Positions 3,239 through 50,933 of a stretch of DNA of 64,000 nucleotides are shown in pieces. The notes under the pieces were generated by a model. The model made no database searches, had not been told where the DNA came from, and was given only the letters and a program-made list of their open reading frames with translations. A program made the translations under genes and the position numbers. Positions within the stretch are counted from its first letter, which is position 1, and every line of letters begins with the position of its first letter. Origin of the DNA: a virus; the IMG/VR virus record IMGVR_UViG_3300028840_006907, positions 32,001 through 96,000 of that record. One strand, written 5' to 3'.

Positions 3239-3740
3239 TATATATACCCAATTACCTTTTTTATCCAGTAATATAACATTTTAATACTATCAAATACCAA
3301 CGTCCTATATGGTGCGTCCGTATTAATCTCTATTAAATCAGTCGTCCTATATCTTTAAACTATGGTCTATATAGTAATAAACACGATCTATAAATCAAAT
3401 AACAATTTTAAGGTAATCCTCTTACTCATCAATATCCATATCTTTATAATAAAAAACCCACACATAGCACCTATAAAAATGTGGAACCCTTTAAGGCATT
3501 TCTTAAGTAACTATGTATGGGCACTGAAAGGGATTTATACAAATCCCATTATTATCTTAATATATTAACTTACTATATGTCTATACCTATAAACATATCC
3601 CCCTATATATTACTAATTAGTAATATGAATGTAATTATCCCTATCCCCTATATCTAATAACCTATAAACTATCCATTAAGTATATCTGTATCCTATCCAT
3701 ATAATAACTCTGTAAGAGAAAATTAATATGTATCAGTATG

Positions 3741-3888
3741 CCCATTACCTTGAATAGAATAATGAGTAAGTCAGTACCAGGAACTATACCATCATGAACT
3801 ATGAACTCGGAACTATGTCAGGGAAAACTTGAGTACTTACCCATTACCTTGAATAGAATAATGGGTAAGTCAATACCAGGAACTATGT
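3741..3888. repeat. direct repeat of about 48 bp (two copies, 99 bp apart) containing CCCATTA..TAATGGG hairpin and GAACTAT iterons
   Basis: cccattaccttgaatagaataatg(a/g)gtaagtca(g/a)taccaggaactat seen at 3741 and 3840. Confidence 0.7.
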
Positions 3889-4260
3889 CGGGAATTTCCA
3901 ACGAGTATTTTGAAAAAATTTATTCTCCCTGCAAAACCCGGAACCGATTTCCTAGTTCCTACAATCATATATTAATAATCTTTTGTTATCTGTATAAGTA
4001 AATTTACACAGGGTAATTGACTGATCAAAGTAAGTTAATGTCTTCCCAAACCGAGTCTTTGACTTGGGGAAATTGGTTGTTGACTGTAGAGAAGAATAAT
4101 TTCACTTGCTCATTTGGGTATTTGACTTGGGGAAACTGGTTCCCGACTATCAAAAGTGGGGTTAAAAACGAGGGGGGTTACCCCTAAATTTGATATTTCC
4201 AGACTGGGAACTCAGACAGGGGCGATTCCAGACTGTTTCTGGCCAGACTGGGGGAAAGAC

Positions 4261-14745: not shown

Positions 14746-14877
14746 TGGATACCTCCATATTTATTATTTATGATATGTTATTTATTATCGATACTTTTTC
14801 GGGACTCTCAACTCTTATGGTATCGATAAGTCCCCCCAGTAGAGAGTTCCTATCTCTCTACCGGCCAGAGTTATATA

Positions 14878-16008
14878 TTAACCAACAAGATCTAAGATCT
14901 TATCAAGGGTTTCATTCTTTTCTTTCATTTGAACTGTAGGATTAGGATTATGTGAAGTCTCTTCAGGAGATTCAATTAATTCCAATACAGTTTCGAGAGC
15001 ATTGGATTTTAATTGAGCACCACTACCTACCCACGCACTATCGGCACGGGCTTGTTCTTGAGTAGTATATCCAGACGTAGATGTTACTCTACTAGGTCTT
15101 TTATGATCCACGTAATTAGTAACAGCATTCACCAAAGCCATACCCGTTCCAGCTTGTTCCGGGATAGCATTATCATCATTATCATTAAATAGTTTAGCTA
15201 TCTCAAGGGCTTTATCAGATTTCTTATCTGATTGTTCCCATTTCTCACCAAAGATACGAGTCATAGTCTGTGCAAAAAGTTCTTTGGTAACTTTATGAGT
15301 AATAATCTTTTCAAACTTTTCTTTAAGAGAATTTATATCCTGTTTTAATCCGGTTTGAATCTCAGTGGTTATTTTATTAAGTTTCTCTTTAGCACCTTTG
15401 GTATGTCTTACTTTAATCATTGCATCCTTAGTGCCTTTAGATAAGGCAAAATTCAAAGTGTTCTGACATACTACCCGTACATCGGTGAGCATAATTGTAT
15501 TACTCATAGTTCCATCATGAGCACTCATAAACATGATAAATGTTTCGTGTTTATCATTTCCGATGGAAGCGTTAAAGGGGACACGGGCCAAAGCCCAGAC
15601 ACGTTCTCCACGTCCTAAAACTCCGGCAGCTTCATAATGTGCACCATCAATCTGTTCTAAGACATTATCAATCCATCCACCGATTTCAATATTTTGCGTA
15701 GGTTCATAGGTATTACCTACGATACCAAGGGCGCTTTCCTTACCAGTTAAATCGGAACGAAAGATACCAAATTGATTCGGGAAAACATATCCTTTAGGTA
15801 CAGTGCTTCCAGGTTTCCATAAAGGATTCTTAAAGAATAACGGCCTTTTTTCGACCGTCCAATCTAATTGAGCCAGTTCATAAGCTTCTTTCCAGGTCAT
15901 TGCATGATTGACCATTTGTCCTAGTTCATGCCACGGTAAACCATGTTCATCTATGGCATATGCAGCCGATACTAAACCGTTTTTTGCTGTAAATAAATTA
16001 TGAGCCAT
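14878..16008 (-). CDS. phage/plasmid-like protein, possibly DUF932 family
   Basis: 376 aa; overall resemblance from memory to DUF932/TIGR03299 proteins; unverified. Confidence 0.45.
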   Translation of the reverse strand: MAHNLFTAKNGLVSAAYAIDEHGLPWHELGQMVNHAMTWKEAYELAQLDWTVEKRPLFFKNPLWKPGSTVPKGYVFPNQFGIFRSDLTGKESALGIVGNTYEPTQNIEIGGWIDNVLEQIDGAHYEAAGVLGRGERVWALARVPFNASIGNDKHETFIMFMSAHDGTMSNTIMLTDVRVVCQNTLNFALSKGTKDAMIKVRHTKGAKEKLNKITTEIQTGLKQDINSLKEKFEKIITHKVTKELFAQTMTRIFGEKWEQSDKKSDKALEIAKLFNDNDDNAIPEQAGTGMALVNAVTNYVDHKRPSRVTSTSGYTTQEQARADSAWVGSGAQLKSNALETVLELIESPEETSHNPNPTVQMKEKNETLDKILDLVG

Positions 16009-16274
16009 TGAAAGACTCCTTTCATGATAAGGGTTCCACTAACTTATTAAAGTCAGCTATTATAGTTATTTGGGTTTTTTATTTACTATGAGGGATTGAC
16101 CAGACTATAAAGAGCATTGCCTTTATTATCAGTCTGGCCTGTTTTCTTCCAGAGACCGAAAGAACTATTTATATATTCAGGTTCAGTCTCTACACCATGT
16201 AATCTGATATATTCAGACCATGAATATTCAGACCATGAAGTAGTGCAGACAGGGGGAGAAGGGAAAGCAATCAT

Positions 16275-16763
16275 TTATACAATGCTCCAGATTTCTTTAG
16301 TCTCACCGTCTTTAACTTCGTAAAAGGTCACGTTACCGTGATCATTCACTAAGAACAATTCACCGGTATAGTTATCAGGGACTTCAGACAAGTCTGAAAC
16401 TTTAATACCGTCGAAATCAATATCATCTAAGTCACACGGCCAGTAACCGTAATCGGAACCATCACCGGGATGGGCACCGAAGTAACAATATGGCGGAGCA
16501 AAAGAATCAAGTGCATTCCAAAGATCTTCATTGAGATATTCTGAAACGTTCTCACTGTCCCAGTCTAAATCTTTGTCCTCTGGAATATTAAGATCTTCTT
16601 TTTCTTCGTTATATTTAATGATCTTTTCACCTTCAGCAATAACTGAAGTATACTCGTTATTTTCATCCAGTTCTTTCAGAAGATCTAAGAAACACGGGAT
16701 AAGATCTTCTGGTTTCATTGTTGCATGACTAACTGTACCTAATGTTATTTTCATGTTATTCAC
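16275..16763 (-). CDS. hypothetical protein
   Basis: ORF track. Confidence 0.4.
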   Translation of the reverse strand: MNNMKITLGTVSHATMKPEDLIPCFLDLLKELDENNEYTSVIAEGEKIIKYNEEKEDLNIPEDKDLDWDSENVSEYLNEDLWNALDSFAPPYCYFGAHPGDGSDYGYWPCDLDDIDFDGIKVSDLSEVPDNYTGELFLVNDHGNVTFYEVKDGETKEIWSIV

Positions 16764-16770
16764 TCCTTCG

Positions 16771-17079
16771 TTATATTATATCTTCGATTGATTCATTATC
16801 AATGTGCCATTGTTCGCATTCATCAATTTCTTTTTCAATGGCTTCAGTAATTTCCTCATCCAGGTCGAGAACATTATTTAAATAATCTCTCCAGTTCTGG
16901 ATAGTATCATTATGAGTCACTCCCCACATACCGTTTTCGTTGTGTTCTTCCATAGTATCTACATCGGTATCGTATTGATTAGGATTAATGCAATGATCTT
17001 GTATACTGTGTACAGTTTCACTTGCATAAATCTGATATTCTTCAGAGTTAATTAAATCTTTCAATGTCTTTATAGTCAT
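16771..17079 (-). CDS. hypothetical acidic protein
   Basis: ORF track. Confidence 0.4.
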   Translation of the reverse strand: MTIKTLKDLINSEEYQIYASETVHSIQDHCINPNQYDTDVDTMEEHNENGMWGVTHNDTIQNWRDYLNNVLDLDEEITEAIEKEIDECEQWHIDNESIEDII

Positions 17080-17100
17080 AGTTAATTCCCCCGATAAGGT

Positions 17101-17613
17101 TTATATTTTATTTAATAGATCTTCAAAGCTTTCAGCAGTGTTCAAAGTAATGAGGAAATCCTTAATATCACTTTCTTTAATGATCTTCTCATGACTATTA
17201 TTGTTTCGAGTTATCTCTTCAGCTAAAAGAGAAACTTTGTTGCCATTTAAATAAATCTCAAATGTTTCGAAATAACCATCTTTATCAATTCTGTCTCTGA
17301 TATTGGCTATATCTTCGAGATATAAATTTATCTTACTTTCGACATTAATAATTACATGACGTTCCTTAGTATCAAAATTGACCTTACAGTTTATATCAAG
17401 ATGTTTAAACATGTTTTCGATTGCATCCAATGTACTTTCTTTTGGTGCTATCTGGTAAGTTATTTCTGTGTTCTCAGAAACGATTGCTTTAATCTTATCT
17501 TTGATAGAGTTATCTATCTCCTGTGAGCACGTGAGGATAATTTTATTATTGCCGTTTTTTGTGAGTTCAATGTTATTATCCTCACATACTCTTAATAGTT
17601 CATTGTTACTCAT
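17101..17613 (-). CDS. hypothetical protein
   Basis: ORF track. Confidence 0.4.
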   Translation of the reverse strand: MSNNELLRVCEDNNIELTKNGNNKIILTCSQEIDNSIKDKIKAIVSENTEITYQIAPKESTLDAIENMFKHLDINCKVNFDTKERHVIINVESKINLYLEDIANIRDRIDKDGYFETFEIYLNGNKVSLLAEEITRNNNSHEKIIKESDIKDFLITLNTAESFEDLLNKI

Positions 17614-17618
17614 AATAT

Positions 17619-18077
17619 CTATATCCTTTTGTGATGTTTAATCATTCTTGCAGAATTATCCCGACCTGTACTAACATGAATCAGGAAGTTATATTTAACT
17701 TTATCCTTCCTGATTATTTCAATGTACAAATGATCAGAAACAAAACCGTTTTCTTTAAGATCTTCAGTATCACCGGCACCTTGGTACCATACTAACTGTA
17801 TAGTATCATTCTCCCGTAATAAACTGATAACAGTCTTTAACGGGCAAAATTCGAAGTCATACATACTGTGATGACTGAAACAGTATGTCTTATTTTTGTA
17901 GCTATAATTTATATATCTTTGTTTCGATTCTACGTTAAATACATGATCACTATCGAACGGGTTATCGTCAGATTTCTTTTTATAGCACTCCACTGTACTA
18001 ATAGAGTTTTCAGTTCTAAAACATATTGTATCGGCTTGTTTCATTGCCTGTATATCGATCTTCTTAATGGTTTTCAT
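17619..18077 (-). CDS. hypothetical protein
   Basis: ORF track. Confidence 0.4.
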   Translation of the reverse strand: MKTIKKIDIQAMKQADTICFRTENSISTVECYKKKSDDNPFDSDHVFNVESKQRYINYSYKNKTYCFSHHSMYDFEFCPLKTVISLLRENDTIQLVWYQGAGDTEDLKENGFVSDHLYIEIIRKDKVKYNFLIHVSTGRDNSARMIKHHKRI

Positions 18078-18090
18078 AGTCTGTATCTCC

Positions 18091-18300
18091 TTATTTATTA
18101 TGTGCTGTTCTAATCATTGGATCATATGTCCCATTGTTCCAAGCTTGAATTTTATTAATAGCAGTCTCGAAAGACTGCAATTCTTCTGGTGATCTTTCTC
18201 TAATTTCTCTTTTTGCTTCAATCTTCATAGTAAGACTGAAAGCACCAAATAATATTATTACACCTATACATATACTTAAAAATAACATAATATATTCCAA
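18091..18300 (-). CDS. small membrane protein (one hydrophobic helix)
   Basis: ORF track; hydrophobic N-terminal segment. Confidence 0.35.
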   Translation of the reverse strand: MEYIMLFLSICIGVIILFGAFSLTMKIEAKREIRERSPEELQSFETAINKIQAWNNGTYDPMIRTAHNK

Positions 18301-18344
18301 TCATTAAAGTTATGGGGGAAGTTATTCCCCCGTTAATTATTTAA

Positions 18345-18650
18345 TTATTTAATAGGCATTCCCAAAGTTTTTGCTACATTGTTCCAAGTTTCTTTCTCTT
18401 TCCATCCAGTCTCAAGAGCATTGAGAGCGGTTACAGCATGATTATATTGCTCTGTTGTGCCCTTATTAACTATTCGACTGAGAAAAGGCTTTGCCTGATT
18501 AAAGAACATAAAATGATGACCGTCCTTAACGATTCGTTTATGTGCGAGTTCTCTGAGAGCGGTATAATTATCTTTCCGGTATTTCTTAGCTCTCATTACG
18601 ATTTTTTTGCCATTGGTTGAATTTTGCAGTGCGTCTTGAATAGAGTTCAT
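18345..18650 (-). CDS. hypothetical protein
   Basis: ORF track. Confidence 0.4.
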   Translation of the reverse strand: MNSIQDALQNSTNGKKIVMRAKKYRKDNYTALRELAHKRIVKDGHHFMFFNQAKPFLSRIVNKGTTEQYNHAVTALNALETGWKEKETWNNVAKTLGMPIK

Positions 18651-18908
18651 GGTTCCTCCATGTTAAGGTTTATGTTAGTTATTTAATTATTATCTTTGTT
18701 ACGTATTAGTCTACGTAGAGTATTAATAGTCCGGTGACTTGTTCTTTGGTCATTCCGCTTAAGGCTTTGATAAATTCTATCGTTGTCCTTTCACCTTGTG
18801 TTTTGAGAAGAGTATTTATACATGCTTTCATTTCGGGTATCATCTCTATTGTGTTCATTGGTGTTATAGTTACAGTCTCCATGTTTTTTCTCCTGTCTGG
18901 TTTAAGTT

Positions 18909-19517
18909 TTAGTTATAGCGAGTTATTCCGTCACTGGATTCAAAATCCATTGCGAGTATGGTATATAATTCCGTTTCCTGTGTATTAATTGTGTCTGGAT
19001 TGACTTGTCTGGAATATCCATCACTGCTTTCAAAATCCATTGCGAGTGAAGCAAATTCATTTGATATGGTTACAAGCGAGTTAACTGGTTGAATTTCAAC
19101 GATTTCAGTCTGGGTTTGGACTTCTTTAATACATTCATCCATTAAACTATTTAGAGTATCTAAGTCGGTAGTTTTTACGAAGGTTTCCCAGTCCTCTTTG
19201 GACATATTAAAATATTCTCGTACGACTTCGAGTTTATCTATATCTGTTATAGTTTTTACTTTGTTCCCGTTTTGCCAAATACTTTTAGCTTTATTAGTAT
19301 ATATAATCTCGCCTGTAAAGTTATGGTTGAAATTTAACCAGCGAGTCTCGTTATTTACTGACGGGTCAATGACTTCAGCGAGTTTATTACCAAAACGGTT
19401 TATACGATAACGGCCAGTACATTGAACGTTTATCCATTCACGAATTGTTTTTCTTGCGGTTTGGTTTGTGCCATTAATAACAGCACCAATTAATTTATCG
19501 TTCATTAGTATAGACAT
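18909..19517 (-). CDS. hypothetical protein with duplicated C-terminal ILAMDFESSDG segment
   Basis: ORF track; 22-bp direct repeat at about 18936 and 19024 inside the CDS. Confidence 0.45.
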   Translation of the reverse strand: MSILMNDKLIGAVINGTNQTARKTIREWINVQCTGRYRINRFGNKLAEVIDPSVNNETRWLNFNHNFTGEIIYTNKAKSIWQNGNKVKTITDIDKLEVVREYFNMSKEDWETFVKTTDLDTLNSLMDECIKEVQTQTEIVEIQPVNSLVTISNEFASLAMDFESSDGYSRQVNPDTINTQETELYTILAMDFESSDGITRYN

Positions 19518-19572
19518 AATATTTCCCCTTGTCTAATGTATATATTAACAGTCAATTATTTTTTTCTGTTGT

Positions 19573-19915
19573 CATGAATAATGAAAAAAGTTTAGTAACT
19601 TTCCGAAGTTTTAAGAAACTTTTTCTTTGACGTTTGTTTTTTGTGGCTTTCATGAGTAATGAAAAAAGTTTAGTAACTTTCCGAAGTTTTAAAAATTTTT
19701 TCTTTCATGTAAACTTTTCCTTGTCTACATGAGTAATGAAAAAAGTTTAGTAACTTTCCGAAGTTTTAAAAATTTTTTCTTTCATGTAAACTTTTCCTTG
19801 TCTACATGAGTAATGAAATTAGTTTGGTAACTTTCCGAAGTTTTAAAAATTTTTTCTTTCATGTAAACTTTTCCTTGTCTACATGAGTAATGAAATTAGT
19901 TTGGTAACTTTCCGG
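19573..19915. repeat. tandem repeat, 77-78 bp unit, about 4.4 copies
   Basis: Unit starts (catgag/catgaa) at 19573, 19651, 19728, 19805, 19882. Confidence 0.85.
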
Positions 19916-20311
19916 AAAAAATTGTAAAAACGCTATTTTCCTTTATATAGGGGAGAGCCAGAAATCGCCCGTTTGATGTGCGTGATATATACGCCCGAAA
20001 ATGTTCCCGGTTCTAACCCCCCAGTGAAATACCCTTTCCACAAAAGTGAAATACCCCAATACAACTATACCATACCCGACCATACCCCACCCCCGGGACC
20101 TGTCTTCGGGATCATCATCATGCGCTTGCTTTTCGTGCGCTCAATGCCATACCCACCCCCTTTTTGTAAAGATTTTTGGAAGTTGGAAATGGATGGAGTT
20201 AGATTGGATTTTTTGGATGGTAGAAAATTTTGGCTGGTGGGAGAGACCCCACAGTAAAGTACCCGGTTGGTTCAGGGAAGTACCAATATGGTTCAGTGGA
20301 GTGTCTTTTTT

Positions 20312-20371
20312 GTGGCGCATATCCTGTTATAGTGGCGCATATTCTATTATAATGGCGCATATTTCAGTTCA
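20312..20371. repeat. tandem repeat, 20 bp unit x3 (TGGCGCATAT core)
   Basis: tggcgcatat at 20313, 20333, 20353. Confidence 0.7.
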
Positions 20372-20397
20372 AAGCTCTCAGAACCCAGTTCAAAGAA

Positions 20398-20628
20398 CAG
20401 GGAACAGGGAACTGAGCACAGGGAACTGAGCACAGGGAACCGAGCACAGGGAACCGAGCACAGGGAACTGAGCACAGGGAACTGAGCACAGGGAACTGAG
20501 CACAGGGAACCGAGCACAGGGAACCGAGCACAGGGAACTGAGCACAGGGAACCGAGCACAGGGAACTGAGAACAGGGAACCGAGCACAGGGAACTGAGAA
20601 CAGGGAACTGAGAACAGGGAACCGAGCA
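20398..20628. repeat. tandem repeat, 14 bp unit (cacagggaac[t/c]gag), about 16-17 copies
   Basis: Direct reading; two unit variants differing at one T/C position. Confidence 0.85.
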
Positions 20629-20872
20629 CCTGTATCTGTGATCTCGGAAAAGTTTCGGGAAAAAAATCGGGAACGGCTCAGGGCTGAGAAATAGGTATGA
20701 ATTTTTTTGGGGTATAATTTTTGGAGTTAAACAGTTGGGGAAATTGGAGTTATCTTATGTGAGGTGATGGGATAGTTTATGGAGGGTGAAAATTTTTTGG
20801 TATAGTTTGATGGAGAAACAGGTATAATACTTATAGGACGGAAAAATTTAAGTCTAATGGTTCGAGGATCTT

Positions 20873-21064
20873 GTGAAGAAGAACACAAAGCGTAAATTAA
20901 ATAAATTGATAGCATTTTGCAAGGATGAGGGGATGGACATAAGTGCGGATGGTGGTTTAATTTATGTCACGGTAGGAAATGGTCGGATGAATGAGGAGGT
21001 TTGGTGTGAGAAGGCTATCAGTGGTTTTTCGGAGGTTGGTGATTTTGGTTTTAACGAGGATTAA
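20873..21064 (+). CDS. small protein, paralog of 23157..23354 (GTG start with GAGGA SD)
   Basis: KL.K...C...G...SA.G.I...V.G shared with 23157..23354. Confidence 0.35.
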   Translation: MKKNTKRKLNKLIAFCKDEGMDISADGGLIYVTVGNGRMNEEVWCEKAISGFSEVGDFGFNED

Positions 21065-21095
21065 AACCTATTAACATTAAACAATTGAGGTAGTT

Positions 21096-21815
21096 ATGAA
21101 CAATAAGATGTATTTAAACAGTTTTATAGATGCATTGAAGGTTTTATCAGTAGGGACTCTTGATAATTATAAGGAGGAGTTTACTGTGGGATTACCTTTG
21201 GACCCGGAGATATTTAAGGAGGTCATACGGAATGGAGTTATGGCTATTCGTGATGGGTCTCATTTTTTTCTTCGTGACATTAAGAAGGTTCGGATTAGGG
21301 ATATGCCGAATGAGTTGCATGAGATTCCAGATCTTTTCACGATATCTTATAAGGCTGATGTTTTTAATGATGAGTTAGTGAAGGAGGATGTTGAGGCTCA
21401 TACTTTGGTGGTTCGTAGATTATCAGATTTGGCATATTCTGTTGTATTGTGGGCATCTCAGGATTTGGAGGTATGGCAACCTATACCTATTTATAATGTT
21501 GTAAATTTTGATGCTGACTTTAATGTTGAAGATGGGGCGTTGCCTTATAGTTATTGGGCGCATGAGTGTTTTTTAAATGGTCAGGGTGATATGATGATTC
21601 GCCAATTACCGTTTGAGAAATTGAATGAAGATCAGGTTGAATATTTAAATCAAACTTATTTATTCCCGATTTTATTTGAGTTATTTCTTGGATTTTGGAA
21701 CAAGTATCCCAGGCTTAGCTTTAAGGATCAGGTTTTACGAAATCGGACGTTGGTACATGATGAGGAGGGTGATGTTTTTTCATTGGATTGGATAAAATAC
21801 AAGGAGATAGTATGA
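21096..21815 (+). CDS. hypothetical protein
   Basis: ORF track; GAGGT SD upstream. Confidence 0.5.
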   Translation: MNNKMYLNSFIDALKVLSVGTLDNYKEEFTVGLPLDPEIFKEVIRNGVMAIRDGSHFFLRDIKKVRIRDMPNELHEIPDLFTISYKADVFNDELVKEDVEAHTLVVRRLSDLAYSVVLWASQDLEVWQPIPIYNVVNFDADFNVEDGALPYSYWAHECFLNGQGDMMIRQLPFEKLNEDQVEYLNQTYLFPILFELFLGFWNKYPRLSFKDQVLRNRTLVHDEEGDVFSLDWIKYKEIV

Positions 21816-22702
21816 AAAATTTACGTGAGATGAAAGATATCCCGGAGGTCATGTATCGGAAGTCGCGTGAAGCGATTTGGTATGACATGAGTCAAGGGGG
21901 GGAATTATTTAATCGGTGTTATGTTTGTGGTCATCATAAGGATGATATGGAGACGTGTACTCATTTTATAAGGGGTATTGAGAATGAGATAGATATTAAG
22001 GAAGTGGCGTCTTGGTTTAATCAACCACCTGAGGTCATAGAGGACCGCGTGATTAATAACACGTTTATTTTACCGTATAATGCAACAAAGGGAGTTGAAT
22101 ATTTACCGGTGAAATATCATGGTGAAAATATAGCGGTATTTCCGATTTGTGGTGGGTGTCAGGCACTTATGCGTATACCTTTTGCAACTGAAGCAGATGT
22201 AATCAAAATGAAGGAGATGAACATGGATAGAGCGATAATAATGACAGGTAAGGCGGTAGAAACTGGTGATATAAACGAGAAGAAGTGTTGTTATTTATGT
22301 GGAAGGCCGGAGGGATCTGACAGTCTTTCGGTTCCTTATAATAAGAGGACTGAGGAGACGTTATTAGCGAAAATTACCTTACGGATGGTGACCTTTAATA
22401 CATCTGAAGAGATGAATATAAAATTTAAGTATTTGGTATGCCCGGAGTGTGAGATTTTATTGGGGGTATCTCCTCGGATCTTTATGAGTCATGATGGTGG
22501 TCATTTAAATGAAGATCATGATCCGTTTGATCTTACTGAATTAAACAATGGGATTCAGGCGATTTTAAATGGCAATATTTCTCCGACATTACAGGCAAAG
22601 GTTTTGGAATACATAAAGGCAGCGGGTCCTGAGTTTTTCATTAATGAGATTTTAACTATTACCAGTAAGAAGAGGAAGAGGAAGAAGAAAAATGGCAAAT
22701 AA
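21812..22702 (+). CDS. hypothetical multi-CxxC zinc-binding protein (start moved to ATG 21812)
   Basis: Track ORF starts on TTG at 21788; ATG 21812 has AAGGAG SD; several CxxC pairs. Confidence 0.5.
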   Translation: MKNLREMKDIPEVMYRKSREAIWYDMSQGGELFNRCYVCGHHKDDMETCTHFIRGIENEIDIKEVASWFNQPPEVIEDRVINNTFILPYNATKGVEYLPVKYHGENIAVFPICGGCQALMRIPFATEADVIKMKEMNMDRAIIMTGKAVETGDINEKKCCYLCGRPEGSDSLSVPYNKRTEETLLAKITLRMVTFNTSEEMNIKFKYLVCPECEILLGVSPRIFMSHDGGHLNEDHDPFDLTELNNGIQAILNGNISPTLQAKVLEYIKAAGPEFFINEILTITSKKRKRKKKNGK

Positions 22703-22919
22703 ATTACAATCGGAAGAGAACACGGTATCTTTTACAGATTGTATCAGGGTTGAAGTTCGTGGAGAGTTAGCGGGATCATTTATGGAGTATTGTTTAAAGA
22801 ATAAGATTTATTCGATGAGAGCTGGGATGTCTGGTCCTGGCATTCATATTGGATTTTATTTGTTGGAGCACCGGGCCAAGATAGAGTCATTTTTTGATGG
22901 AGTCATAGATGAAGAATGA
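22692..22919 (+). CDS. hypothetical protein
   Basis: ORF track. Confidence 0.35.
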   Translation: MANKLQSEENTVSFTDCIRVEVRGELAGSFMEYCLKNKIYSMRAGMSGPGIHIGFYLLEHRAKIESFFDGVIDEE

Positions 22920-23160
22920 GCGGACTCGTATACTTCTATTATATAAGCCTGAGCAGAAGCTTCTTAAGACGGTTTTGCGGACGATACATGAGATTCGGGA
23001 GGTTTACGGGTATTATTATGTGGGCTGGTTTGTTTATGATCGTTTTGATCATTTTTGTTTTCGTTCAAAGAATGCGACTACGTGGATTGAGCTTTATGGC
23101 TGGAGTCCTTTGATCGTGGCTTGGAAGCGATACAACTTTAACAAGCGGAGGTACTTATGA
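22909..23160 (+). CDS. hypothetical protein
   Basis: ORF track. Confidence 0.35.
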   Translation: MKNERTRILLLYKPEQKLLKTVLRTIHEIREVYGYYYVGWFVYDRFDHFCFRSKNATTWIELYGWSPLIVAWKRYNFNKRRYL

Positions 23161-23354
23161 ACGCATCAACATCTATTAAATTGGATAAATTTTTAGAATA
23201 TTGTCGTGAGAATGGGATTCGGTTGAGTGCAGTTGGTCAGATTTTTCTCAATGTTGATGGTGATATCATTTTTACTCCCTATGGCAAGATCACCGAAGAG
23301 ACAGTGGTGGATGATTTTCAGAATGAGAAGTTTATTGGTAATTATACAATATAG
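23157..23354 (+). CDS. small protein, paralog of 20873..21064
   Basis: Shared motif with 20873..21064. Confidence 0.4.
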   Translation: MNASTSIKLDKFLEYCRENGIRLSAVGQIFLNVDGDIIFTPYGKITEETVVDDFQNEKFIGNYTI

Positions 23355-23363
23355 GAGATTTTT

Positions 23364-23780
23364 ATGGTACCCAATACATTCACAGACGAAGAAGTTGATA
23401 TAGCCCGAAAATATGTTTTATCTCAGATTAGGAGATATAGTCGGTTTAAGAACGGGAAGAAGTTAGGGAACCCGTTTGTCTTTTATAAGGACGTTTTGGC
23501 TCAGATAGGGTATTATATAGAATCTGAGCATGACGGGGATCGTGCTGGTATACTTGCTGCGCGTATTTCAGAGGCAGAATTTTCTGAGCATGGAGTGCTT
23601 ATAGGTGCGGTTATAGTGAGTCAGGAGTATCGTCGTCCTGGTCCTGGTTTTTATGTATTTGCCGAGGAGAATGGGTTATTTAATTGTCATGGTAATGCCG
23701 ATCCGGACGGGGCTCGGGAGTTGAATTTTTGGGATCAGCATGTTACTGAAATTGTAAGACATTATGGGAGGCAGAGATAA
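23364..23780 (+). CDS. hypothetical protein
   Basis: ORF track; AGGAG SD. Confidence 0.45.
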   Translation: MVPNTFTDEEVDIARKYVLSQIRRYSRFKNGKKLGNPFVFYKDVLAQIGYYIESEHDGDRAGILAARISEAEFSEHGVLIGAVIVSQEYRRPGPGFYVFAEENGLFNCHGNADPDGARELNFWDQHVTEIVRHYGRQR

Positions 23781-23933
23781 TGATACATTCTTATCAGGTT
23801 GGGGAGATATGTAATGATCCTTTATATGTGGACTATGCAATGAGAGGTGATATTGTTGAAGTCAGTCTTGATGAGGTAGAACTTGTACAAGCCTCTGATT
23901 CAGATGCTTTTTTATCAGAAGAGGATTTAATAA

Positions 23934-24359
23934 ATGAAAAGAGTTAAATGTCGTTCAGATAAAGTGACTGTTTTTCCTGTTACTGGAGGTCATTATCAAC
24001 AAAGGATTGAGGAAGTAACAATTGGAAATGTTTATGAAGTGATTAGGGTTGTTCGTGATGATTATTATGAAATCCTTCCTGATGAGGGATTCCAAACCAA
24101 AGTGCTTCCTGATTACATGTTTGAGTCAACCAATGAACCGGTTACCATTAACCCGGATCGGGAGAAGAATGAAAAGAAGAGACAGGAACGATTAGAGAAG
24201 GAGCGAAAGGAACGGGAAGCTCAGAGAATTCGCGAGGAGATTCAAGATAGAGCATTAGCATATTATAATCCGGTTGCATGGTATAAAAAACAGAAAGCGA
24301 AAAAGCGCTTATCAGATGCTCTTTCTCAGATTTTTACCTCTGGTTTACCTTATGGATAA
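23934..24359 (+). CDS. hypothetical protein with KR/E-rich helical segment
   Basis: ORF track. Confidence 0.45.
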   Translation: MKRVKCRSDKVTVFPVTGGHYQQRIEEVTIGNVYEVIRVVRDDYYEILPDEGFQTKVLPDYMFESTNEPVTINPDREKNEKKRQERLEKERKEREAQRIREEIQDRALAYYNPVAWYKKQKAKKRLSDALSQIFTSGLPYG

Positions 24360-24370
24360 AGGAGATAAGC

Positions 24371-24694
24371 ATGGTTGAAAAATCATGGGAAGAAATAGAA
24401 GGAAGAGACTGGACTGCTATACAGATAAAAGATGCTCAAAAAAAGCATAATGATGGCATAATAGAAAACATAGTTATGAAATTTGATAAGCCAGAGACAG
24501 CGAATGGTTTCAATAGATGGTTACAATTTTGCGGGGAATTTAAAATAACTGTAGAAGACATTACTCCTGCAGATGTCCGTCTTGTATGGTATGGCCCGAA
24601 TTTGAATAACATCACATTTATGACTGAGAAGAATTCTCAAAAGTACATTAATGAAAAGACGAGATTGATTTTAATAAAGGATATTGAAAGATGA
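24371..24694 (+). CDS. hypothetical protein
   Basis: ORF track; AGGAG SD. Confidence 0.45.
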   Translation: MVEKSWEEIEGRDWTAIQIKDAQKKHNDGIIENIVMKFDKPETANGFNRWLQFCGEFKITVEDITPADVRLVWYGPNLNNITFMTEKNSQKYINEKTRLILIKDIER

Positions 24695-24939
24695 TCACAC
24701 GCATTGGATTGGATGCTGCGATCAGCATGATCGATAAGGATATCCCCGAGGCCCTGGAGCCTTACTGGGCTACTGTGAAGCAATTTATAGATGAGTTGCC
24801 AGAAGATACCTTAATCCAGTTGCTTCAATCTATTGCTAATCAGATAAATACTAGGGGTAATTGTCTGATAATTCAGCAGGAAGAAGATTTACGAGTAGTA
24901 AAAGATATTGATTTAGTATTATTTAAAGATTTAAAATAG
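24691..24939 (+). CDS. small protein, tandem paralog of 24950..25195
   Basis: D..IP..LE.YW.TV....D.LPE.TL..L..SIA......N.CL.I shared between the two adjacent ORFs. Confidence 0.45.
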   Translation: MITRIGLDAAISMIDKDIPEALEPYWATVKQFIDELPEDTLIQLLQSIANQINTRGNCLIIQQEEDLRVVKDIDLVLFKDLK

Positions 24940-24949
24940 GAGCGGTAGT

Positions 24950-25195
24950 ATGAAAGTTAAACGTTCTGATTTAACAAAAGCTATACGTGAACTTGATGAA
25001 AAAATACCTAGTGAATTAGAATCTTATTGGAAAACAGTCAGATTAGCCCTAGATGATTTACCAGAAGAAACTTTATGTAATTTGTTTGGATCTATTGCCA
25101 GAGAACTGGGTTTAAAAAATCAATGTCTTCTGATTCGTAAAGGGGATGATATTGGTATAGTTACAAAATTTAAAGCGATAAGGATACCTGATTAA
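24950..25195 (+). CDS. small protein, tandem paralog of 24691..24939
   Basis: As above. Confidence 0.45.
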   Translation: MKVKRSDLTKAIRELDEKIPSELESYWKTVRLALDDLPEETLCNLFGSIARELGLKNQCLLIRKGDDIGIVTKFKAIRIPD

Positions 25196-25197
25196 TT

Positions 25198-25545
25198 ATG
25201 AGACAGATAAAATTGGCTTCAAATGATAATGATATTACAGCTAAATTAAAAATGACTATAAATTCTAAAATACACCAATTACATGTATTATTGAGTAAAA
25301 ATATAGAACTTGGTAATCTCTTGGAATTAAAAGATGAAGCCTCCGATAATGATTATATCGAATTCGGTGATATAATGTTGAGACAAAGGTTACTCTTGGC
25401 AGAAATAGATTCTTTAATGATTTCTTTAAAACAGATGATTATGATGATTTCAAAAAATAAAAGAGTACAAATAGAGTGGGATGAAATTTCAGAGGAAGAT
25501 TTAAAAGCTGTACGAGATAGTTATTTCCATAAAATAATGGAGTAA
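25198..25545 (+). CDS. hypothetical protein
   Basis: ORF track. Confidence 0.4.
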   Translation: MRQIKLASNDNDITAKLKMTINSKIHQLHVLLSKNIELGNLLELKDEASDNDYIEFGDIMLRQRLLLAEIDSLMISLKQMIMMISKNKRVQIEWDEISEEDLKAVRDSYFHKIME

Positions 25546-25547
25546 TA

Positions 25548-25829
25548 ATGAATCAAGAGTTTTCAGAGACACCAGTTTCCATTGAGATAGAATTTGATTT
25601 GGATAGATTCAAAATTGATCCGGAAAAAAGTGTGAGGTATACTTTTCATTTTAAAGGCAGTGATGAGTTAAATTCGATAGAAGAAGCTGATATAAAAAGT
25701 TTACATAGTCTATACGCATGTTCTAGTGCTGTTACTATTATGCTTAAAAAATGTATAGATTCTTATTATCATTATATGAATAAAGCTGGAGAAGAAATTA
25801 ACACAATAGTAGAAGAGGGAAAAAAGTGA
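25548..25829 (+). CDS. hypothetical protein
   Basis: ORF track. Confidence 0.4.
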   Translation: MNQEFSETPVSIEIEFDLDRFKIDPEKSVRYTFHFKGSDELNSIEEADIKSLHSLYACSSAVTIMLKKCIDSYYHYMNKAGEEINTIVEEGKK

Positions 25830-26215
25830 AACAATTAATCCTAAATGAAGGAGATGGTGTAACAACGGTAATTCTAAAAGCAATGATAAATTCATCAATG
25901 GCTGAACTGGATTATTATGAAAACACTGCTTCGAAGATGAATATAGAGAATTGGGATGTTACCGTAGATGTTGAGAGAATCCAAGTTAAAATTGATTCTT
26001 TGGTTAGAATGTTACAAGTACATTTAAAGAAGATCTATTTGACATGGGAAGAAATTGATACTAAAGATCTGGTTATAAAAGATTGGAAAGTATGGAGTTC
26101 AAAGAATAATAAAAATACTTGTTTTGGATCAAAACCAGGTTCCCAGGCTCAGGCAGAGAATGGTTGTGAAAATTGTTGGGATCAGAATGAATGCTTTTCT
26201 AATATAGAAAAATAA
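25826..26215 (+). CDS. hypothetical protein (LKAMIN N-terminal motif shared with 26390..26833)
   Basis: ORF track; short shared motif. Confidence 0.4.
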   Translation: MKQLILNEGDGVTTVILKAMINSSMAELDYYENTASKMNIENWDVTVDVERIQVKIDSLVRMLQVHLKKIYLTWEEIDTKDLVIKDWKVWSSKNNKNTCFGSKPGSQAQAENGCENCWDQNECFSNIEK

Positions 26216-26389
26216 TATGATTTCAAGATGGAATGTGTTTTTTAACGTGATACTCATCCAGATAATTATGTTATTTGTTACTGAGGCAAAGGAAGGTTTA
26301 CATTTAGTTCGATATTTATCATTTGCCGTTATAGATGTGTTACTTCTCATCTACGCATTAATAGGTTATAGGAAATCAAAAGAAAAATA

Positions 26390-26833
26390 GTGAGGGAAAG
26401 AATGTCATTTTTAGAACCTGAAGATGTTGTTGATCAATTAAAGATTTATAAAAGAGATAGTAGTGATATAGTTCTTTTAAAAGCCATGATAAATAAAGAA
26501 GTGGCTAAATTATTTGTTTTAAATCAAACAAGTGAAGTTATTTTGGAAGATATTCTGAAAATGGATTCAGGATCTGTTCCTGTTTTTTCAATTGAAAAAG
26601 TCACTGAGATGGGACTTGATTATTGTATCTCGGTTGCAAAGATAATTTCTTTAATAAATTCTTTGATACAATCTGGTCATGATGTTCTGGAGTGGGAAGA
26701 AGTGAGTCTATATAAGATAGGTAAAATAGACGGTTTAAAAATATTGGAAAAATTAAGCAATAATATGGACAAATTAAATGAAGCAATGAAAAGTTTTAAG
26801 ATGGATGAGGATTCTTCCGAGGATATAAATTGA
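26390..26833 (+). CDS. hypothetical protein
   Basis: ORF track. Confidence 0.4.
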   Translation: MRERMSFLEPEDVVDQLKIYKRDSSDIVLLKAMINKEVAKLFVLNQTSEVILEDILKMDSGSVPVFSIEKVTEMGLDYCISVAKIISLINSLIQSGHDVLEWEEVSLYKIGKIDGLKILEKLSNNMDKLNEAMKSFKMDEDSSEDIN

Positions 26834-27198
26834 TGGATTTTTTATTCGAAAAATCAAGGAAAGTCCCTAAGCATAGATGCACGAAATGTTTTAAAGAGAT
26901 GGATCATCTGACAGGAGATGGTATACCTACTGTTGGAAGTCTTATTGCCTGTATAAATTGTGGCCATATTATGATGATTGGAGAATCTTTTAAAATGCTT
27001 GAGGTAGATATACCTCAATTAGCAAGAGAATCAGATATCAAAGATTATTGTAAAATATGTCTTGCTAGTAAAGTTCTTGCTAATGTATTTCACAAAAGAA
27101 ATGGATATTATGCTTCTACCATTTTTGAGGATATTGAAAAACATTGTCCAGGAGGTTGCCATTGGATTGAAGGTACTGGCCAAGGTTTGTATAATTGA
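26830..27198 (+). CDS. hypothetical zinc-ribbon protein
   Basis: CTKC ... CINCG pairs. Confidence 0.45.
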   Translation: MMDFLFEKSRKVPKHRCTKCFKEMDHLTGDGIPTVGSLIACINCGHIMMIGESFKMLEVDIPQLARESDIKDYCKICLASKVLANVFHKRNGYYASTIFEDIEKHCPGGCHWIEGTGQGLYN

Positions 27199-38923: not shown

Positions 38924-39682
38924 TTGGAGACATCTGTGAAGTATAGCGTACTTGTACCCTACTATAAACGCCTAGGGCACCTACATAATACCTTTATTTC
39001 CTTTCTACACCATTATTCAGATAGAAATGATTATGAGGTTGTCATAGCAGAAGATTATAAAAATGTCCAGAATAAAAAAGACCATGACGGTCTATCAGAA
39101 ACCATTGAGAAATTCCGTGAAAAAATACCGATAATTCATTTAACTCTTTCTATGGAAACCTGGAATCCAGCTCATGGTTTTAATGAAGCTGCAAAGTGGG
39201 CTTCTGGTGAATATTTCGTTGTAACCAATCCAGAATGTTTCCATCAAGTGAACATACTGGCTGGACTCGATAAAGAATTTGAAGAAGACCCCAATGTCTA
39301 TGTTGTATGTGGTTGTATGAATTATGTCCGTTGTAATTTTTTTATTAAAAACTTTAATGATCTAAATGGAAAATTTCAGAGATGGTACCAACACTCAATA
39401 CATAGAGCAGCCCACTATCATTTCTGTTCAGCTATTTCAAAACAGAATTGGGTAAAAATAGGAGGATTCGATGAAGACTTTGCTATGGGTATAGCCTATG
39501 ATGATGTCGATTTTAAATTAAGCATTCAAAAAGCCAAGATACCCTTTCATATCCGGGATGACCTTCTTACTATACATATTGACCATGGTTCCTTCCCATC
39601 TCCTCCAAATGCTCAGAAATTAGTTAATCGAAATAGAATCACCTATCAAAGAAAATGGGAAGGAAGTAATGAATCTTACTAG
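38924..39682 (+). CDS. putative family-2 (GT-A) glycosyltransferase
   Basis: N-terminal YSVLVPYY and GGFDEDFAMGIAYDDVDF segments resemble GT2 signatures; start codon uncertain (TTG 38924 or GTG 38936). Confidence 0.5.
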   Translation: METSVKYSVLVPYYKRLGHLHNTFISFLHHYSDRNDYEVVIAEDYKNVQNKKDHDGLSETIEKFREKIPIIHLTLSMETWNPAHGFNEAAKWASGEYFVVTNPECFHQVNILAGLDKEFEEDPNVYVVCGCMNYVRCNFFIKNFNDLNGKFQRWYQHSIHRAAHYHFCSAISKQNWVKIGGFDEDFAMGIAYDDVDFKLSIQKAKIPFHIRDDLLTIHIDHGSFPSPPNAQKLVNRNRITYQRKWEGSNESY

Positions 39683-43983: not shown

Positions 43984-44019
43984 TCTAGGAATGTAAAGTA
44001 TTAGAGGATTATTAAGGGG

Positions 44020-47018: not shown

Positions 47019-47127
47019 ACTAAGTCATAATGCCATTCAAATCAAAGGTTTATAGGAACCCTAATTTTCTACCAAAGAAAAATGTACTTGTCATGTATAA
47101 ATGTCAAAGAGCGTCAGAGAGAAATCC
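47019..47127 (-). promoter_or_regulatory. CRISPR leader 1, with a ~55-bp core shared with leader 2
   Basis: accctaattttctaccaaa...tataaatgtcaaagagc shared with 54587..54683; contains TTGACA on minus strand. Confidence 0.5.
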
Positions 47128-49359: not shown

Positions 49360-49444
49360 TGTCTTTTTCCTCTCAAATAAGTCCTGGAAAGCCTTTTCAG
49401 GGGCTTTCCAGGATTAATGTACTGTGTATTCTATATCAACACTT

Positions 49445-49600
49445 TCAATCGTTTTTATCAATCTCCGTGGCTAATACCGACATAAATGACATTCCGGTTC
49501 CTCCTGGTAATTCAATAATAGAAGGTCTTTTGATGTTCTCTTCTAAATTCCTAGAAGCGAGTTGCCAAGAATAGGCTTTTATAGTTTTTGTATTATTCAT
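49445..49600 (-). CDS. small ORF (51 aa) between cas6e and helicase, unknown
   Basis: ATG at 49598-49600 with TGGAGA SD; no motif. Confidence 0.25.
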   Translation of the reverse strand: MNNTKTIKAYSWQLASRNLEENIKRPSIIELPGGTGMSFMSVLATEIDKND

Positions 49601-49628
49601 TTTAAAATCTCCATATAAAAGGTTTATT

Positions 49629-50273
49629 TTAATAAGATTTATACGGTGCAATAAGCATCATACCACATCCGAAACCTTTACTCTTACCAATTCCATTATA
49701 AATAGTATTCACAAAAAGATTTTTATTGACTACCTGAAGGACTCCTCGTAAATCAATACTGAAAAAAGATACAACTTTACCATCTTTTTTTTTGAATTTA
49801 CAGAATTGAAAAGATTGAACGGAATGCTTTTGAATCATATTTTTAAAACCGTAACTTTGGCCACGTTTCTGAAGCCAATTCTTTGAGGATTCGTGAGCAA
49901 TGAAATTCCAATTATAGGGTTCATCAAGAACTTTCATTTCATTTGCCAGATCCGTCATGATTGAAACCTTTTTCCTGGTTTTCAATTTACAAACTTCGGC
50001 ATTGAGTCTGAGATCGTATTGAAGAAATATTCCAGATTTTAAATTATTTAAATCGAATACTTTTGTTTGTGTAGTGTATTCGTCCTCTGGAGGATTTGGT
50101 TTCTTTTTTGATATGATATAAAGTTCACCATTATAGAGATAATAAAGGAAATCTCTTACCCTGTTAGATCTTTGATCACCAAAAAATTCCCAGACTTTTT
50201 GATGAAGCTCATATATACCTTCGGTGGGAGAATATCTTCTCAAGCTGTCACTGTAAATTTTACTCAGAAACAT
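49629..50273 (-). CDS. cas6e: Cas6e (CasE) crRNA endoribonuclease
   Basis: MFLSKIYSD..YELHQKVWEFF..RDFLYY and C-terminal GIGKSKGFGCGMM match recollected E. coli CasE; start moved to ATG 50273. Confidence 0.75.
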   Translation of the reverse strand: MFLSKIYSDSLRRYSPTEGIYELHQKVWEFFGDQRSNRVRDFLYYLYNGELYIISKKKPNPPEDEYTTQTKVFDLNNLKSGIFLQYDLRLNAEVCKLKTRKKVSIMTDLANEMKVLDEPYNWNFIAHESSKNWLQKRGQSYGFKNMIQKHSVQSFQFCKFKKKDGKVVSFFSIDLRGVLQVVNKNLFVNTIYNGIGKSKGFGCGMMLIAPYKSY

Positions 50274-50910: not shown

Positions 50911-50933
50911 AATATTATAACTCCTGGTAACAA

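What the first reader, a model, noticed from the sequence alone, without database searches (positions are those of the whole stretch)
20398..20628. 14-bp tandem repeat with two unit variants in an irregular order
cacagggaac[t/c]gag repeats about 16-17 times, units differing only at one T/C position in the order T,T,C,C,T,T,T,C,C,T,C,T,C,T,T,C. The 14-bp period is off the helical repeat, and the unit contains cagggaa, which also ends many array-1 repeats; the resemblance may be coincidental.
Basis: seen in the sequence. Interest (0 to 1): 0.45.

Follow-up and report, generated by a model that had tools for sequence, protein, structure and literature searches.

The report
Variable 14-bp repeat, huge-phage control region
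A real, non-coding array of sixteen 14-base repeats sits between two back-to-back clusters of small unknown genes in a 470-kb uncultivated phage; it is most likely a row of protein-binding sites (or just an unstable minisatellite), which is an ordinary kind of feature whose exact job cannot be settled from sequence alone.

Summary
The repeat is real: 16 head-to-tail 14-bp units (20403-20626) plus a half unit, and the T/C order is exactly as reported. A second variable base (C/A) was missed. The "irregular" order contains a duplicated 5-unit block.

The window is part of a 469.6-kb phage-like contig (GCA_016840655.1). The array is non-coding. It lies in a 1.58-kb repeat-rich gap where transcription diverges and GC skew flips sign. 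It sits about 80 bp upstream of three -10-like boxes and 244 bp upstream of the first rightward gene.

A second assembly is identical over 7.2 kb except for 11 units instead of 16. This is either a true copy-number variant or an assembly collapse.

"Array-1" is a type I-E CRISPR array. The shared CAGGGAA is weak evidence (3.7% of shuffled units do as well), with no hairpin partner and no spacer match.

No relatives could be compared, and the neighbouring genes have no recognisable families.

Best reading (about 0.4): an iteron-like protein-binding platform in an early-control or origin region, closest to the T4 oriE 12-nt iterons. Rivals are a neutral minisatellite (about 0.28), a centromere, a GGA-motif sponge RNA, and an R-loop origin. 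Interest is low to moderate.

The parts
20396..20629 (+). The tandem array: half unit AACAGGG, then 16 units of [C/A]ACAGGGAAC[T/C]GAG, then CAC. It is purine-rich on the + strand.
   Evidence: AT skew is +0.76 to +0.85 and GC skew +0.20 to +0.25.
20655..20691 (+). Decayed unit-like relics on the right edge (TCGGGAAAAAAATCGGGAACGGCTCAGGGCTGAGAAA).
   Evidence: Read directly from the sequence. This is an inference of homology to the unit.
20313..20363 (+). A separate 20-bp repeat family, TGGCGCATATYCTRTTATAR, 2.5-3 copies, immediately left of the array.
20365..20395 (+). Two copies of CAGTTCAAAG, 21 bp apart, abutting the array.
20711..20828 (+). Three GGTATA(A/G)T -10-like boxes (20711, 20799, 20821) facing the rightward genes. 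None has a recognisable -35.
   Evidence: not called by the sigma-70 consensus scan
20100..20200 (.). Point where GC skew flips from -0.56 to +0.42 inside non-coding DNA. The array lies on the G-rich rightward arm.
19573..19914 (.). AT-rich 77-bp x 4.4 tandem array (24-27% GC) in the same intergenic region. One assembly breaks here.
18909..19517 (-). First leftward gene (202 aa, no family match).
20873..21064 (+). First rightward gene (63 aa, no family match). It starts about 13 kb of small genes without family matches.
   Evidence: structure model uninformative

Best explanation
The array is a cis-acting DNA element: a row of 16 contiguous binding sites (iterons). Each unit is made of two GRGMAC-type heptads. 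I propose it binds an unidentified sequence-specific protein, probably phage-encoded. It lies in the control region from which two clusters of small early-type genes diverge. With 14 bp per unit, successive sites are rotated by about 120 degrees (3 units = 4 helical turns). Bound protein would therefore wind around the DNA as a filament, as on other contiguous short-repeat sites, rather than sit on one face. From about 80 bp upstream of the rightward -10-like boxes, such a complex could set early transcription and/or mark a replication origin, as proposed for the 12-nt iterons of T4 oriE. Copy number changes by slippage or unequal exchange of multi-unit blocks. Shown: the anatomy, non-coding status, position, uniqueness in the window, and the 16 versus 11 unit difference. 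Inferred: protein binding, the filament geometry, and the link to transcription or replication.
For: The array is real and unique in 64 kb. It is non-coding: the period is not a multiple of 3, TGA stops occur on the + strand, and neither source annotation calls a gene between 19517 and 20873. It lies in a 1.58-kb gap between divergent gene clusters that also holds at least four other direct-repeat families, a typical protein-binding landscape. GC skew flips sign at about 20.13-20.16 kb within non-coding DNA. Sigma-70-like promoters exist elsewhere in the window. No promoter or terminator brackets the array, and three -10-like boxes lie just downstream of it. That places it upstream of, not inside, the predicted rightward transcription unit. 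Twelve of 14 positions are invariant in all units. [quoted passage not shown] Contiguous short direct repeats upstream of operons are the known binding mode of ParR, TubR and omega proteins (PMC5016525).
Against: No binding protein is identified. All genes tested by Pfam within about 13 kb to the right and 12 kb to the left lack DNA-binding, initiator or partition domains, and two structure predictions failed (pLDDT 33 and 56). There are no DnaA boxes. The window-scale GC skew follows gene orientation, falling again after 47 kb where genes turn to the minus strand, so it does not independently mark an origin. Near-perfect unit identity can result from recent expansion rather than selection. 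No conservation test was possible. Even for T4 oriE the role of the iterons is unproven.
Confidence: 0.4

Rival explanations
1. A neutral, hypervariable minisatellite. It would have grown by replication slippage or unequal recombination from a heptamer-type simple repeat, be tolerated in a large non-coding gap, and have no sequence-specific function.
For: The only difference between two assemblies over 7.2 kb is a clean 5-unit (70-bp) indel in the array. The interior is homogenised with decayed copies at the edge. There is an internal 70-bp block duplication. The same or similar units (GAGAACAGGGAACY, (GGGAACA)n) occur as short intergenic arrays in unrelated bacteria and phages, only about 3-fold more often than two composition-matched control 8-mers (27 versus 8 and 7 loci).
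Against: The array is 224 bp of GC-rich sequence (about 60% GC) in a 33% GC genome. It lies exactly at a divergent control region packed with other repeat families. Phage genomes rarely keep long functionless DNA at such positions. This is an argument from context, not a test.
Confidence: 0.28
2. A plasmid-type centromere (parC / tubC / omega-heptad style). A small adaptor protein would coat the contiguous repeats and couple the genome to a segregation motor, while also autoregulating the adjacent operon.
For: The repeats are head-to-tail, short and spacer-free, lie in a single locus upstream of an operon, and have a 7-bp sub-period like omega heptads. These are the architectures summarised in PMC5016525.
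Against: No ParA, ParM or TubZ-like motor, and no RHH or wHTH adaptor, was detected by Pfam or PHROGs in the flanking genes. Nothing indicates a plasmid-prophage lifestyle.
Confidence: 0.08
3. An RNA-level element. Transcribed rightward, the array would give 17 ACAGGGAAC sites (ANGGA cores) every 14 nt. That could act as a sponge or leader for a CsrA/RsmA-type GGA-binding protein of a (possibly gammaproteobacterial) host.
For: The unit contains AGGGA, which fits ANGGA, the general CsrA recognition motif in apical loops (PMC5207318). T-type units fold into GC-A-CAG[GGAA]CUG-A-GC hairpins that present GGA in the loop (-5.1 kcal/mol). The site density (1 per 14 nt) resembles CsrB (own knowledge). 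The purine-rich strand has the same sense as the downstream genes. The closest Cas7e relatives are from Gammaproteobacteria, a group with Csr systems.
Against: There is no promoter upstream and no terminator downstream by consensus scan. There is no Rfam match. The C variant, 7 of 16 units, destroys the + strand hairpin (-1.3 kcal/mol), and only the minus-strand RNA tolerates the variant. No CsrA homologue is present in the window. Perfect tandem arrays are unlike known sponge RNAs. The motif match is post hoc.
Confidence: 0.1
4. A transcription-primed (R-loop) origin zone. GGG clusters and a purine-rich non-template strand would stabilise an RNA-DNA hybrid that primes leading-strand synthesis, as at T4 oriF/oriG.
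For: The + strand is 71% purine with GGG every 14 nt. The site lies at a transcriptional divergence point like active T4 origins, where R-loops prime replication.
Against: No promoter is predicted upstream of the array. The AT-rich segment (19.5-19.9 kb) lies on the opposite arm, not downstream of the array. The G-cluster spacing of 11 nt is long for known R-loop initiation zones (own knowledge).
Confidence: 0.06
5. An element tied to the phage's own type I-E CRISPR-Cas system. It would be a decoy or anti-repeat that pairs with or mimics the 5' arm (GUUCCCUG) of the pre-crRNA repeats, or a DNA site bound by the same protein.
For: CAGGGAA(C) is shared with 15 CRISPR repeats. Only 3.7% of shuffled units share a recurrent repeat 7-mer. 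An unrelated low-GC 129-kb phage contig (L024) has 14-bp arrays whose units are CGGGGAAC/CAGGGAAC, the same two endings seen in the CRISPR repeats here.
Against: The match is only 7-8 nt. The unit lacks the complementary stem arm conserved, with compensatory changes, in all CRISPR repeats. No spacer matches the region. L024 was found by searching for this very 8-mer and is unrelated at protein level.
Confidence: 0.04

Closest known systems
[quoted passage not shown]
   Same: Both are short direct repeats in a large lytic phage, lying where transcription switches strand and nucleotide bias shifts. Function is suspected but unproven (PMC3016281).
   Different: The unit here is 14 bp, contiguous, and present in 16 copies. 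No RepEA/RepEB-like gene was recognised nearby. No conservation in relatives could be shown here, whereas T4-type iterons are syntenic in relatives.
Plasmid centromeres made of contiguous short direct repeats (R1/pSK41 parC, pBtoxis tubC, pSM19035 omega-binding heptads)
   Same: Both are spacer-free tandem short repeats at one locus upstream of an operon, bound cooperatively by small proteins that wrap or coat the DNA. The 7-bp sub-period recalls omega heptads (PMC5016525).
   Different: No partition NTPase or adaptor gene was detected next to the array. The sequences are unrelated. Sixteen 14-bp units is longer than most such sites.
Minisatellite / VNTR loci and the perfect tandem repeats of giant extrachromosomal elements such as Borgs (own knowledge; PMC11208441 listed)
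   Same: Near-perfect head-to-tail units, change by whole blocks of units, and occurrence in a low-GC giant element.
   Different: Borgs are archaeal elements, and their genic repeats have unit lengths divisible by three. This is a single intergenic array in a phage-like genome.
CsrB/RsmZ-type protein-sponge RNAs
   Same: Many closely spaced GGA (ANGGA) motifs, partly in loops of small hairpins.
   Different: No promoter, terminator or Rfam match. This is a perfect tandem array rather than diverged stem-loops. Nearly half the units lose the hairpin on the + strand.
Short-repeat arrays (SRL/SRR) next to the T7 terminal repeat, upstream of the three tandem early promoters A1-A3 (own knowledge, not verified in the paper library: searches found nothing)
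   Same: The layout is similar: an array of heptamer-based short repeats, then three tandem promoter-like boxes, then the first early gene.
   Different: No evidence that this site is a genome end. The sequences are unrelated. The function of the T7 repeats is itself unclear.

Membership tests
Origin iterons (Rep-binding direct repeats; T4 oriE / R6K gamma type) | Cluster of evenly spaced direct repeats in non-coding DNA | tested here: met
   16 units at exactly 14-bp spacing
Origin iterons (Rep-binding direct repeats; T4 oriE / R6K gamma type) | Adjacent initiator gene or other recognisable replication gene | tested here: not met
   No Pfam or PHROGs replication family in the genes tested across about 7.7-34 kb of the window. 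Unrecognisable initiators among the unmatched genes cannot be excluded.
Origin iterons (Rep-binding direct repeats; T4 oriE / R6K gamma type) | AT-rich unwinding element and/or DnaA boxes nearby | tested here: inconclusive
   A 24-27% GC segment lies at 19.5-19.9 kb, about 500 bp away on the other arm. No DnaA box within 1 mismatch in the region except two at gene edges.
Origin iterons (Rep-binding direct repeats; T4 oriE / R6K gamma type) | Origin activity / skew or coverage extremum at the site | tested here: inconclusive
   There is a local skew switch at about 20.15 kb, but the window-scale skew tracks gene orientation. The whole genome and read depth were not available.
Origin iterons (Rep-binding direct repeats; T4 oriE / R6K gamma type) | Conservation at the syntenic site in related phages | not testable with these tools
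   The only relatives (36% and 47% identity to the flanking proteins) are on 2.8-kb and 2.1-kb contigs that stop before the region.
Plasmid/prophage centromere (type Ib, II, III) | [quoted passage not shown] | tested here: inconclusive
   The array is 244 bp upstream of the first rightward gene, but that operon is not identifiable as par.
Plasmid/prophage centromere (type Ib, II, III) | Adjacent motor NTPase (ParA, ParM, TubZ) and centromere-binding protein | tested here: not met
   No such Pfam family in the flanking genes.
CsrA/RsmA sponge RNA | Multiple GGA / ANGGA motifs | tested here: met
   17 AGGGA motifs at 14-nt (first pair 7-nt) spacing; motif definition from PMC5207318.
CsrA/RsmA sponge RNA | GGA presented in apical loops of hairpins | tested here: inconclusive
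   T units form a hairpin with a GGAA loop, -5.1 kcal/mol. C units give -1.3 kcal/mol with the hairpin lost.
CsrA/RsmA sponge RNA | Discrete transcript (promoter and terminator), match to a known family | tested here: not met
   No promoter or terminator by consensus scan. No Rfam hit at E<=1 or at gathering threshold.
CRISPR array / CRISPR repeat derivative | Repeats separated by unique spacers | tested here: not met
   Units are contiguous.
CRISPR array / CRISPR repeat derivative | Type I-E repeat hairpin (two complementary GC-rich arms) | tested here: not met
   All CRISPR repeats here keep a 5-7 bp perfect stem. The 14-mer shares only one arm-like 7-8-mer, and 3.7% of shuffled units share a recurrent repeat 7-mer.
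Protein-coding tandem repeat | Unit length divisible by 3 within an open reading frame of a called gene | tested here: not met
   The period is 14. The + strand ORF ends at 20429. The minus-strand ORFs (55-79 aa) are artefacts of a stop-free repeat, and no gene is called there in either assembly.
VNTR / minisatellite | Copy number differs between otherwise identical genomes | tested here: inconclusive
   16 versus 11 units with 0 other differences in 7.2 kb. However, at k<=77 the 11-unit path has no k-mer absent from the 16-unit allele, so a multi-k assembler could have collapsed the 70-bp duplication.

The most novel reading that the evidence does not exclude
The array is transcribed and works as RNA. 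In this reading it is a phage-made decoy carrying 17 evenly spaced ACAGGGAAC sites. It would titrate a host GGA-binding global regulator (CsrA/RsmA type), or it would pair with or mimic the 5' arm of the phage's own diverged type I-E CRISPR repeats. The G-rich 14-bp arrays that follow repeated promoter-like modules in an unrelated 129-kb phage contig (L024) would then be a second instance of the same device.
Probability: 0.1. Interest if true: 0.75.

Novelty: new member of a known kind. Interest (0 to 1): 0.27.

Why it matters
If the array is a protein-binding platform at an origin or early-control region, it gives a concrete handle on how a 470-kb uncultivated phage starts its programme. That handle includes a bait for finding the binding protein among genes with no known relatives. 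The array is also a ready strain-typing marker, since its copy number is the only difference seen between two assemblies. If it is merely a minisatellite, it mainly warns that assemblies of such genomes break or collapse at this locus. Only the low-probability RNA-decoy reading would be of wide interest.

Tried and rejected
**Relatives**
- Megablast and blastn of the region against 50,697 phage records found nothing.
- The exact unit is absent from IMG/VR.
- Protein-anchored scans of IMG/VR with both flanking genes found no relatives.
- Two whole-database protein searches each found one remote homologue, on contigs too short to show the region.
- The 1514-aa protein has no phage hit.

**Hits elsewhere**
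- The exact 23-mer occurs in unrelated bacterial MAGs and metagenomes, and CAGGGAAC-N6 x3 occurs in 27 viral loci. I first read this as a possible widespread element.
- Two composition-matched control patterns gave 8 and 7 loci. Most of the 27 hits are plain (GGGAACA)n heptamer arrays, and none of the five loci with a true 14-bp period (L019, L024, L025, L036, L038) is related at protein level.
- I therefore treat these hits as background simple repeats.

**Other rejected readings**
- Coding repeat: rejected on period, stops and gene calls.
- CRISPR link: tested by shuffling, hairpin scan and spacer matching, and judged weak.
- Known RNA family: none.
- CsrA homologue in the window: none.
- DnaA boxes: none.
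- Other clusters of the hexamer in the window: none.

**Failed tools**
- Structure prediction of the 239-aa and 63-aa neighbours was unusable.
- Minus-strand proteins could not be looked up in the contig index.
- Literature searches for the accession and for the T7 SRL/SRR repeats returned nothing.

Full report
**What is there**

Tandem Repeats Finder reports a 14-bp repeat at 20404-20629 with 16.1 copies, 93% matches and score 382. Read in register, the array is:
- a half unit AACAGGG (20396-20402);
- 16 full units [C/A]ACAGGGAAC[T/C]GAG (20403-20626);
- a trailing CAC.

With up to two mismatches the unit occurs 16 times in the 64-kb window, all in the array, against 0.30 expected.

Three details need correcting.
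- A second position varies: the first base is A instead of C in units 1, 13, 15 and 16. There are therefore four unit types, in the order abccb-bbccb-cbdbad.
- The order is not wholly irregular. Units 1-5 and 6-10 are a 70-bp duplicated block.
- Each unit is two related heptads (GGGAACY and GAGMACA). Three units make 42 bp, which is four helical turns.

Decayed unit-like sequence flanks the right edge.

**Where it is**

The window is positions 32001-96000 of NCBI GCA_016840655.1, contig JAEORW010000001.1 (469,617 bp). Locus L003 from that record is identical to window 14873-27064. The contig is phage-like and has about 33% GC. Its genes are mostly small and lack family matches.

The array lies in a 1.58-kb gap without genes (19518-21095). 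Genes to the left are on the minus strand and genes to the right on the plus strand. Neither source annotation calls a gene in the gap.

The gap is packed with other direct repeats:
- an AT-rich 77-bp x 4.4 array (19573-19914);
- AGTGAAATACCC x 2;
- CCATACCC x 3;
- a 20-bp x 3 family (20313-20363);
- CAGTTCAAAG x 2.

GC skew flips from -0.56 to +0.42 at about 20.13-20.16 kb, inside non-coding DNA. The array, at about 60% GC and 71% purine on the + strand, sits on the G-rich rightward arm. Three GGTATA(A/G)T boxes follow at 20711, 20799 and 20821. The first rightward gene starts at 20873.

**Not coding, not a known RNA**

The period is not a multiple of three. T-type units carry TGA, which closes all + frames. 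The stop-free minus strand only yields artefactual ORFs of 55-79 aa.

Rfam gives nothing, either at E<=1 over 18.5-22 kb or at gathering threshold over the whole window. The consensus scans find no sigma-70 promoter or intrinsic terminator around the array. Sigma-70-like promoters are visible elsewhere in the window.

**Variation**

A second assembly (ENA ERZ27256798, contig k141_1708087, 469,021 bp) ends inside the 77-bp array. It is identical to the window from 19792 to 27064 except for a clean 70-bp deletion, which leaves 11 units (abccb-cbdbad).

The difference may still be an artefact. The 11-unit allele has 61 private 141-mers. At k<=77, however, it has no k-mer that the 16-unit allele lacks, so a multi-k assembler could have collapsed the duplicated block. 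I call the polymorphism likely but unproven.

**Relatives**

No useful comparator exists.
- There is no DNA match among 50,697 phage records.
- The flanking proteins have no relatives in IMG/VR.
- In the 5.8-billion-protein search each flanking protein has one remote homologue (36% and 47% identity), on contigs of 2.8 and 2.1 kb.
- One of these contigs stops 120 nt upstream of the gene, in a CATGAAAG-type repeat like the 77-bp unit here.

**The CRISPR resemblance**

"Array-1" (about 43.99-47.03 kb) is a type I-E-style CRISPR array read on the minus strand. The cas genes lie upstream of it on that strand: cas8e, cas7e, cas5 and cas6e. Its roughly 50 repeats all keep a GC-rich hairpin, but with different compensating stems.

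CAGGGAA ends 15 of these repeats. Almost any shuffled 14-mer shares some 7-mer with this 3-kb region. Only 3.7% share a 7-mer that recurs at least 10 times there. That is mildly unusual and post hoc. The unit lacks the second stem arm, and no spacer matches the gap. I judge the link probably coincidental.

**Similar arrays elsewhere**

The exact 23-mer, in its A variant, occurs in short intergenic arrays in unrelated bacterial MAGs and metagenome contigs. CAGGGAAC at 14-bp spacing occurs in 27 viral contigs. Of these, 22 are plain (GGGAACA)n arrays and five are true 14-bp arrays.

Two composition-matched control patterns gave 8 and 7 loci. The excess is therefore about 3-fold, and seven hits belong to one phage family. 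None of the 14-bp cases is related to this window at protein level. I treat these as background simple repeats.

One case, L024, is worth noting. It is a 129-kb phage contig of 35% GC. Its G-rich 14-bp arrays (CGGGGAACGAGAGG / CAGGGAACGAGGGA) follow each copy of a repeated ~75-bp module in a 2.6-kb non-coding region.

**How it most likely works**

The best-supported reading is a DNA element. I take it to be a contiguous row of binding sites for a sequence-specific protein, in the region that controls two divergent early-type gene clusters and possibly replication.

The closest precedent is T4 oriE. [quoted passage not shown] The role of those iterons is itself still undefined (PMC3016281). The contiguous, spacer-free arrangement also matches the sites coated by ParR, TubR and omega proteins (PMC5016525).

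Several things count against this reading.
- No binding, initiator or partition protein is recognisable nearby.
- There are no DnaA boxes.
- Window-scale skew follows gene orientation.
- Structure models of two neighbouring proteins were useless.

I put this reading at about 0.4.

**Rivals**

- **Neutral minisatellite, about 0.28.** It is supported by the block indel, the edge decay and the background occurrence of similar repeats.
- **Centromere, about 0.08.** It lacks partner genes.
- **RNA reading, about 0.1.** It rests on 17 ANGGA motifs (CsrA-type recognition, PMC5207318) and on a GGAA-loop hairpin in T units (-5.1 kcal/mol). The C variant abolishes that hairpin on the + strand (-1.3 kcal/mol) and is tolerated only on the minus strand. 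No transcript signals or CsrA gene were found.
- **R-loop origin, about 0.06.** It remains possible but thinly supported.
- **CRISPR-linked decoy, about 0.04.** It is also thinly supported.

**Verdict**

The feature is a non-coding, probably copy-number-variable tandem repeat in the divergent control region of a huge phage. It is a new example of a known kind of element, of low to moderate interest, and its function is not yet testable by comparison because no relatives are assembled across the locus.

Noticed in passing
window 43990-47030 (- strand): A type I-E-style CRISPR array of about 50 units, period 49-62 bp. The three youngest repeats are identical (ATGTTCCCCGCCCCTGCGGGGATTCCCC). The older ones keep a 5-7 bp hairpin but with at least six different compensating stem sequences.
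   Followed up: partly
window 47128-53989 (- strand): A phage-borne Cascade operon: Cas8e (647 aa), Cas7e, Cas5 and Cas6e, followed by a 743-aa ResIII/DEAD helicase. No Cas1 or Cas2 was seen in the window. The closest Cas7e relatives are gammaproteobacterial, at about 33% identity.
   Followed up: partly
window 54391-54590: A second mini-array of four repeats, CAGCCCCGCGTATGCGGGGAATAG, period 53-61 bp, upstream of cas8e.
   Followed up: no
window 19573-19914: An AT-rich 77-bp x 4.4 tandem array on the leftward arm of the same gap. The ENA contig ends inside it, and the contig of a remote relative (L013) also ends in a similar CATGAAAG-type repeat 120 nt upstream of the homologous gene.
   Followed up: partly
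window 20313-20363, 20365-20395 and 20023-20056: Three further small direct-repeat families next to the array: TGGCGCATATYCTRTTATAR x 3, CAGTTCAAAG x 2, and AGTGAAATACCC x 2 at 22-bp spacing.
   Followed up: no
window 3240-4260: Another roughly 1-kb stretch without long ORFs inside the leftward gene cluster. It has its own repeated modules (for example CATAGTTCC...TGACTTAC.CATTATTCTATTCAAGGTAATGGG x 2) and strongly negative GC skew.
   Followed up: no
window 39669-41762 (+): A radical SAM protein interrupted by an intein with a LAGLIDADG domain. A second radical SAM gene lies at 61306-62025.
   Followed up: no
window 18909-19517 (-): The 202-aa first leftward protein ends with a tandemly duplicated acidic motif, LAMDFESSDG...ILAMDFESSDG.
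   Followed up: no
L024 10740-11530 (IMGVR_UViG_3300009506_000004, 129 kb): An unrelated low-GC phage contig with five or six copies of a ~75-bp module (CCTTCAAAGGATATCTAGATAAACATATCTTTTGATGATCCC...). Each copy is followed by G-rich 14-bp arrays whose cores are CGGGGAAC or CAGGGAAC.
   Followed up: partly
L005-L012 (bacterial MAG and metagenome contigs): GAGAACAGGGAACY and related GNGAACN heptad arrays occur in intergenic DNA of Verrucomicrobiota, Acidobacteriota and Cloacimonadota. Several lie directly 5' of a start codon, for example between rplB and rpsS in L011.
   Followed up: partly
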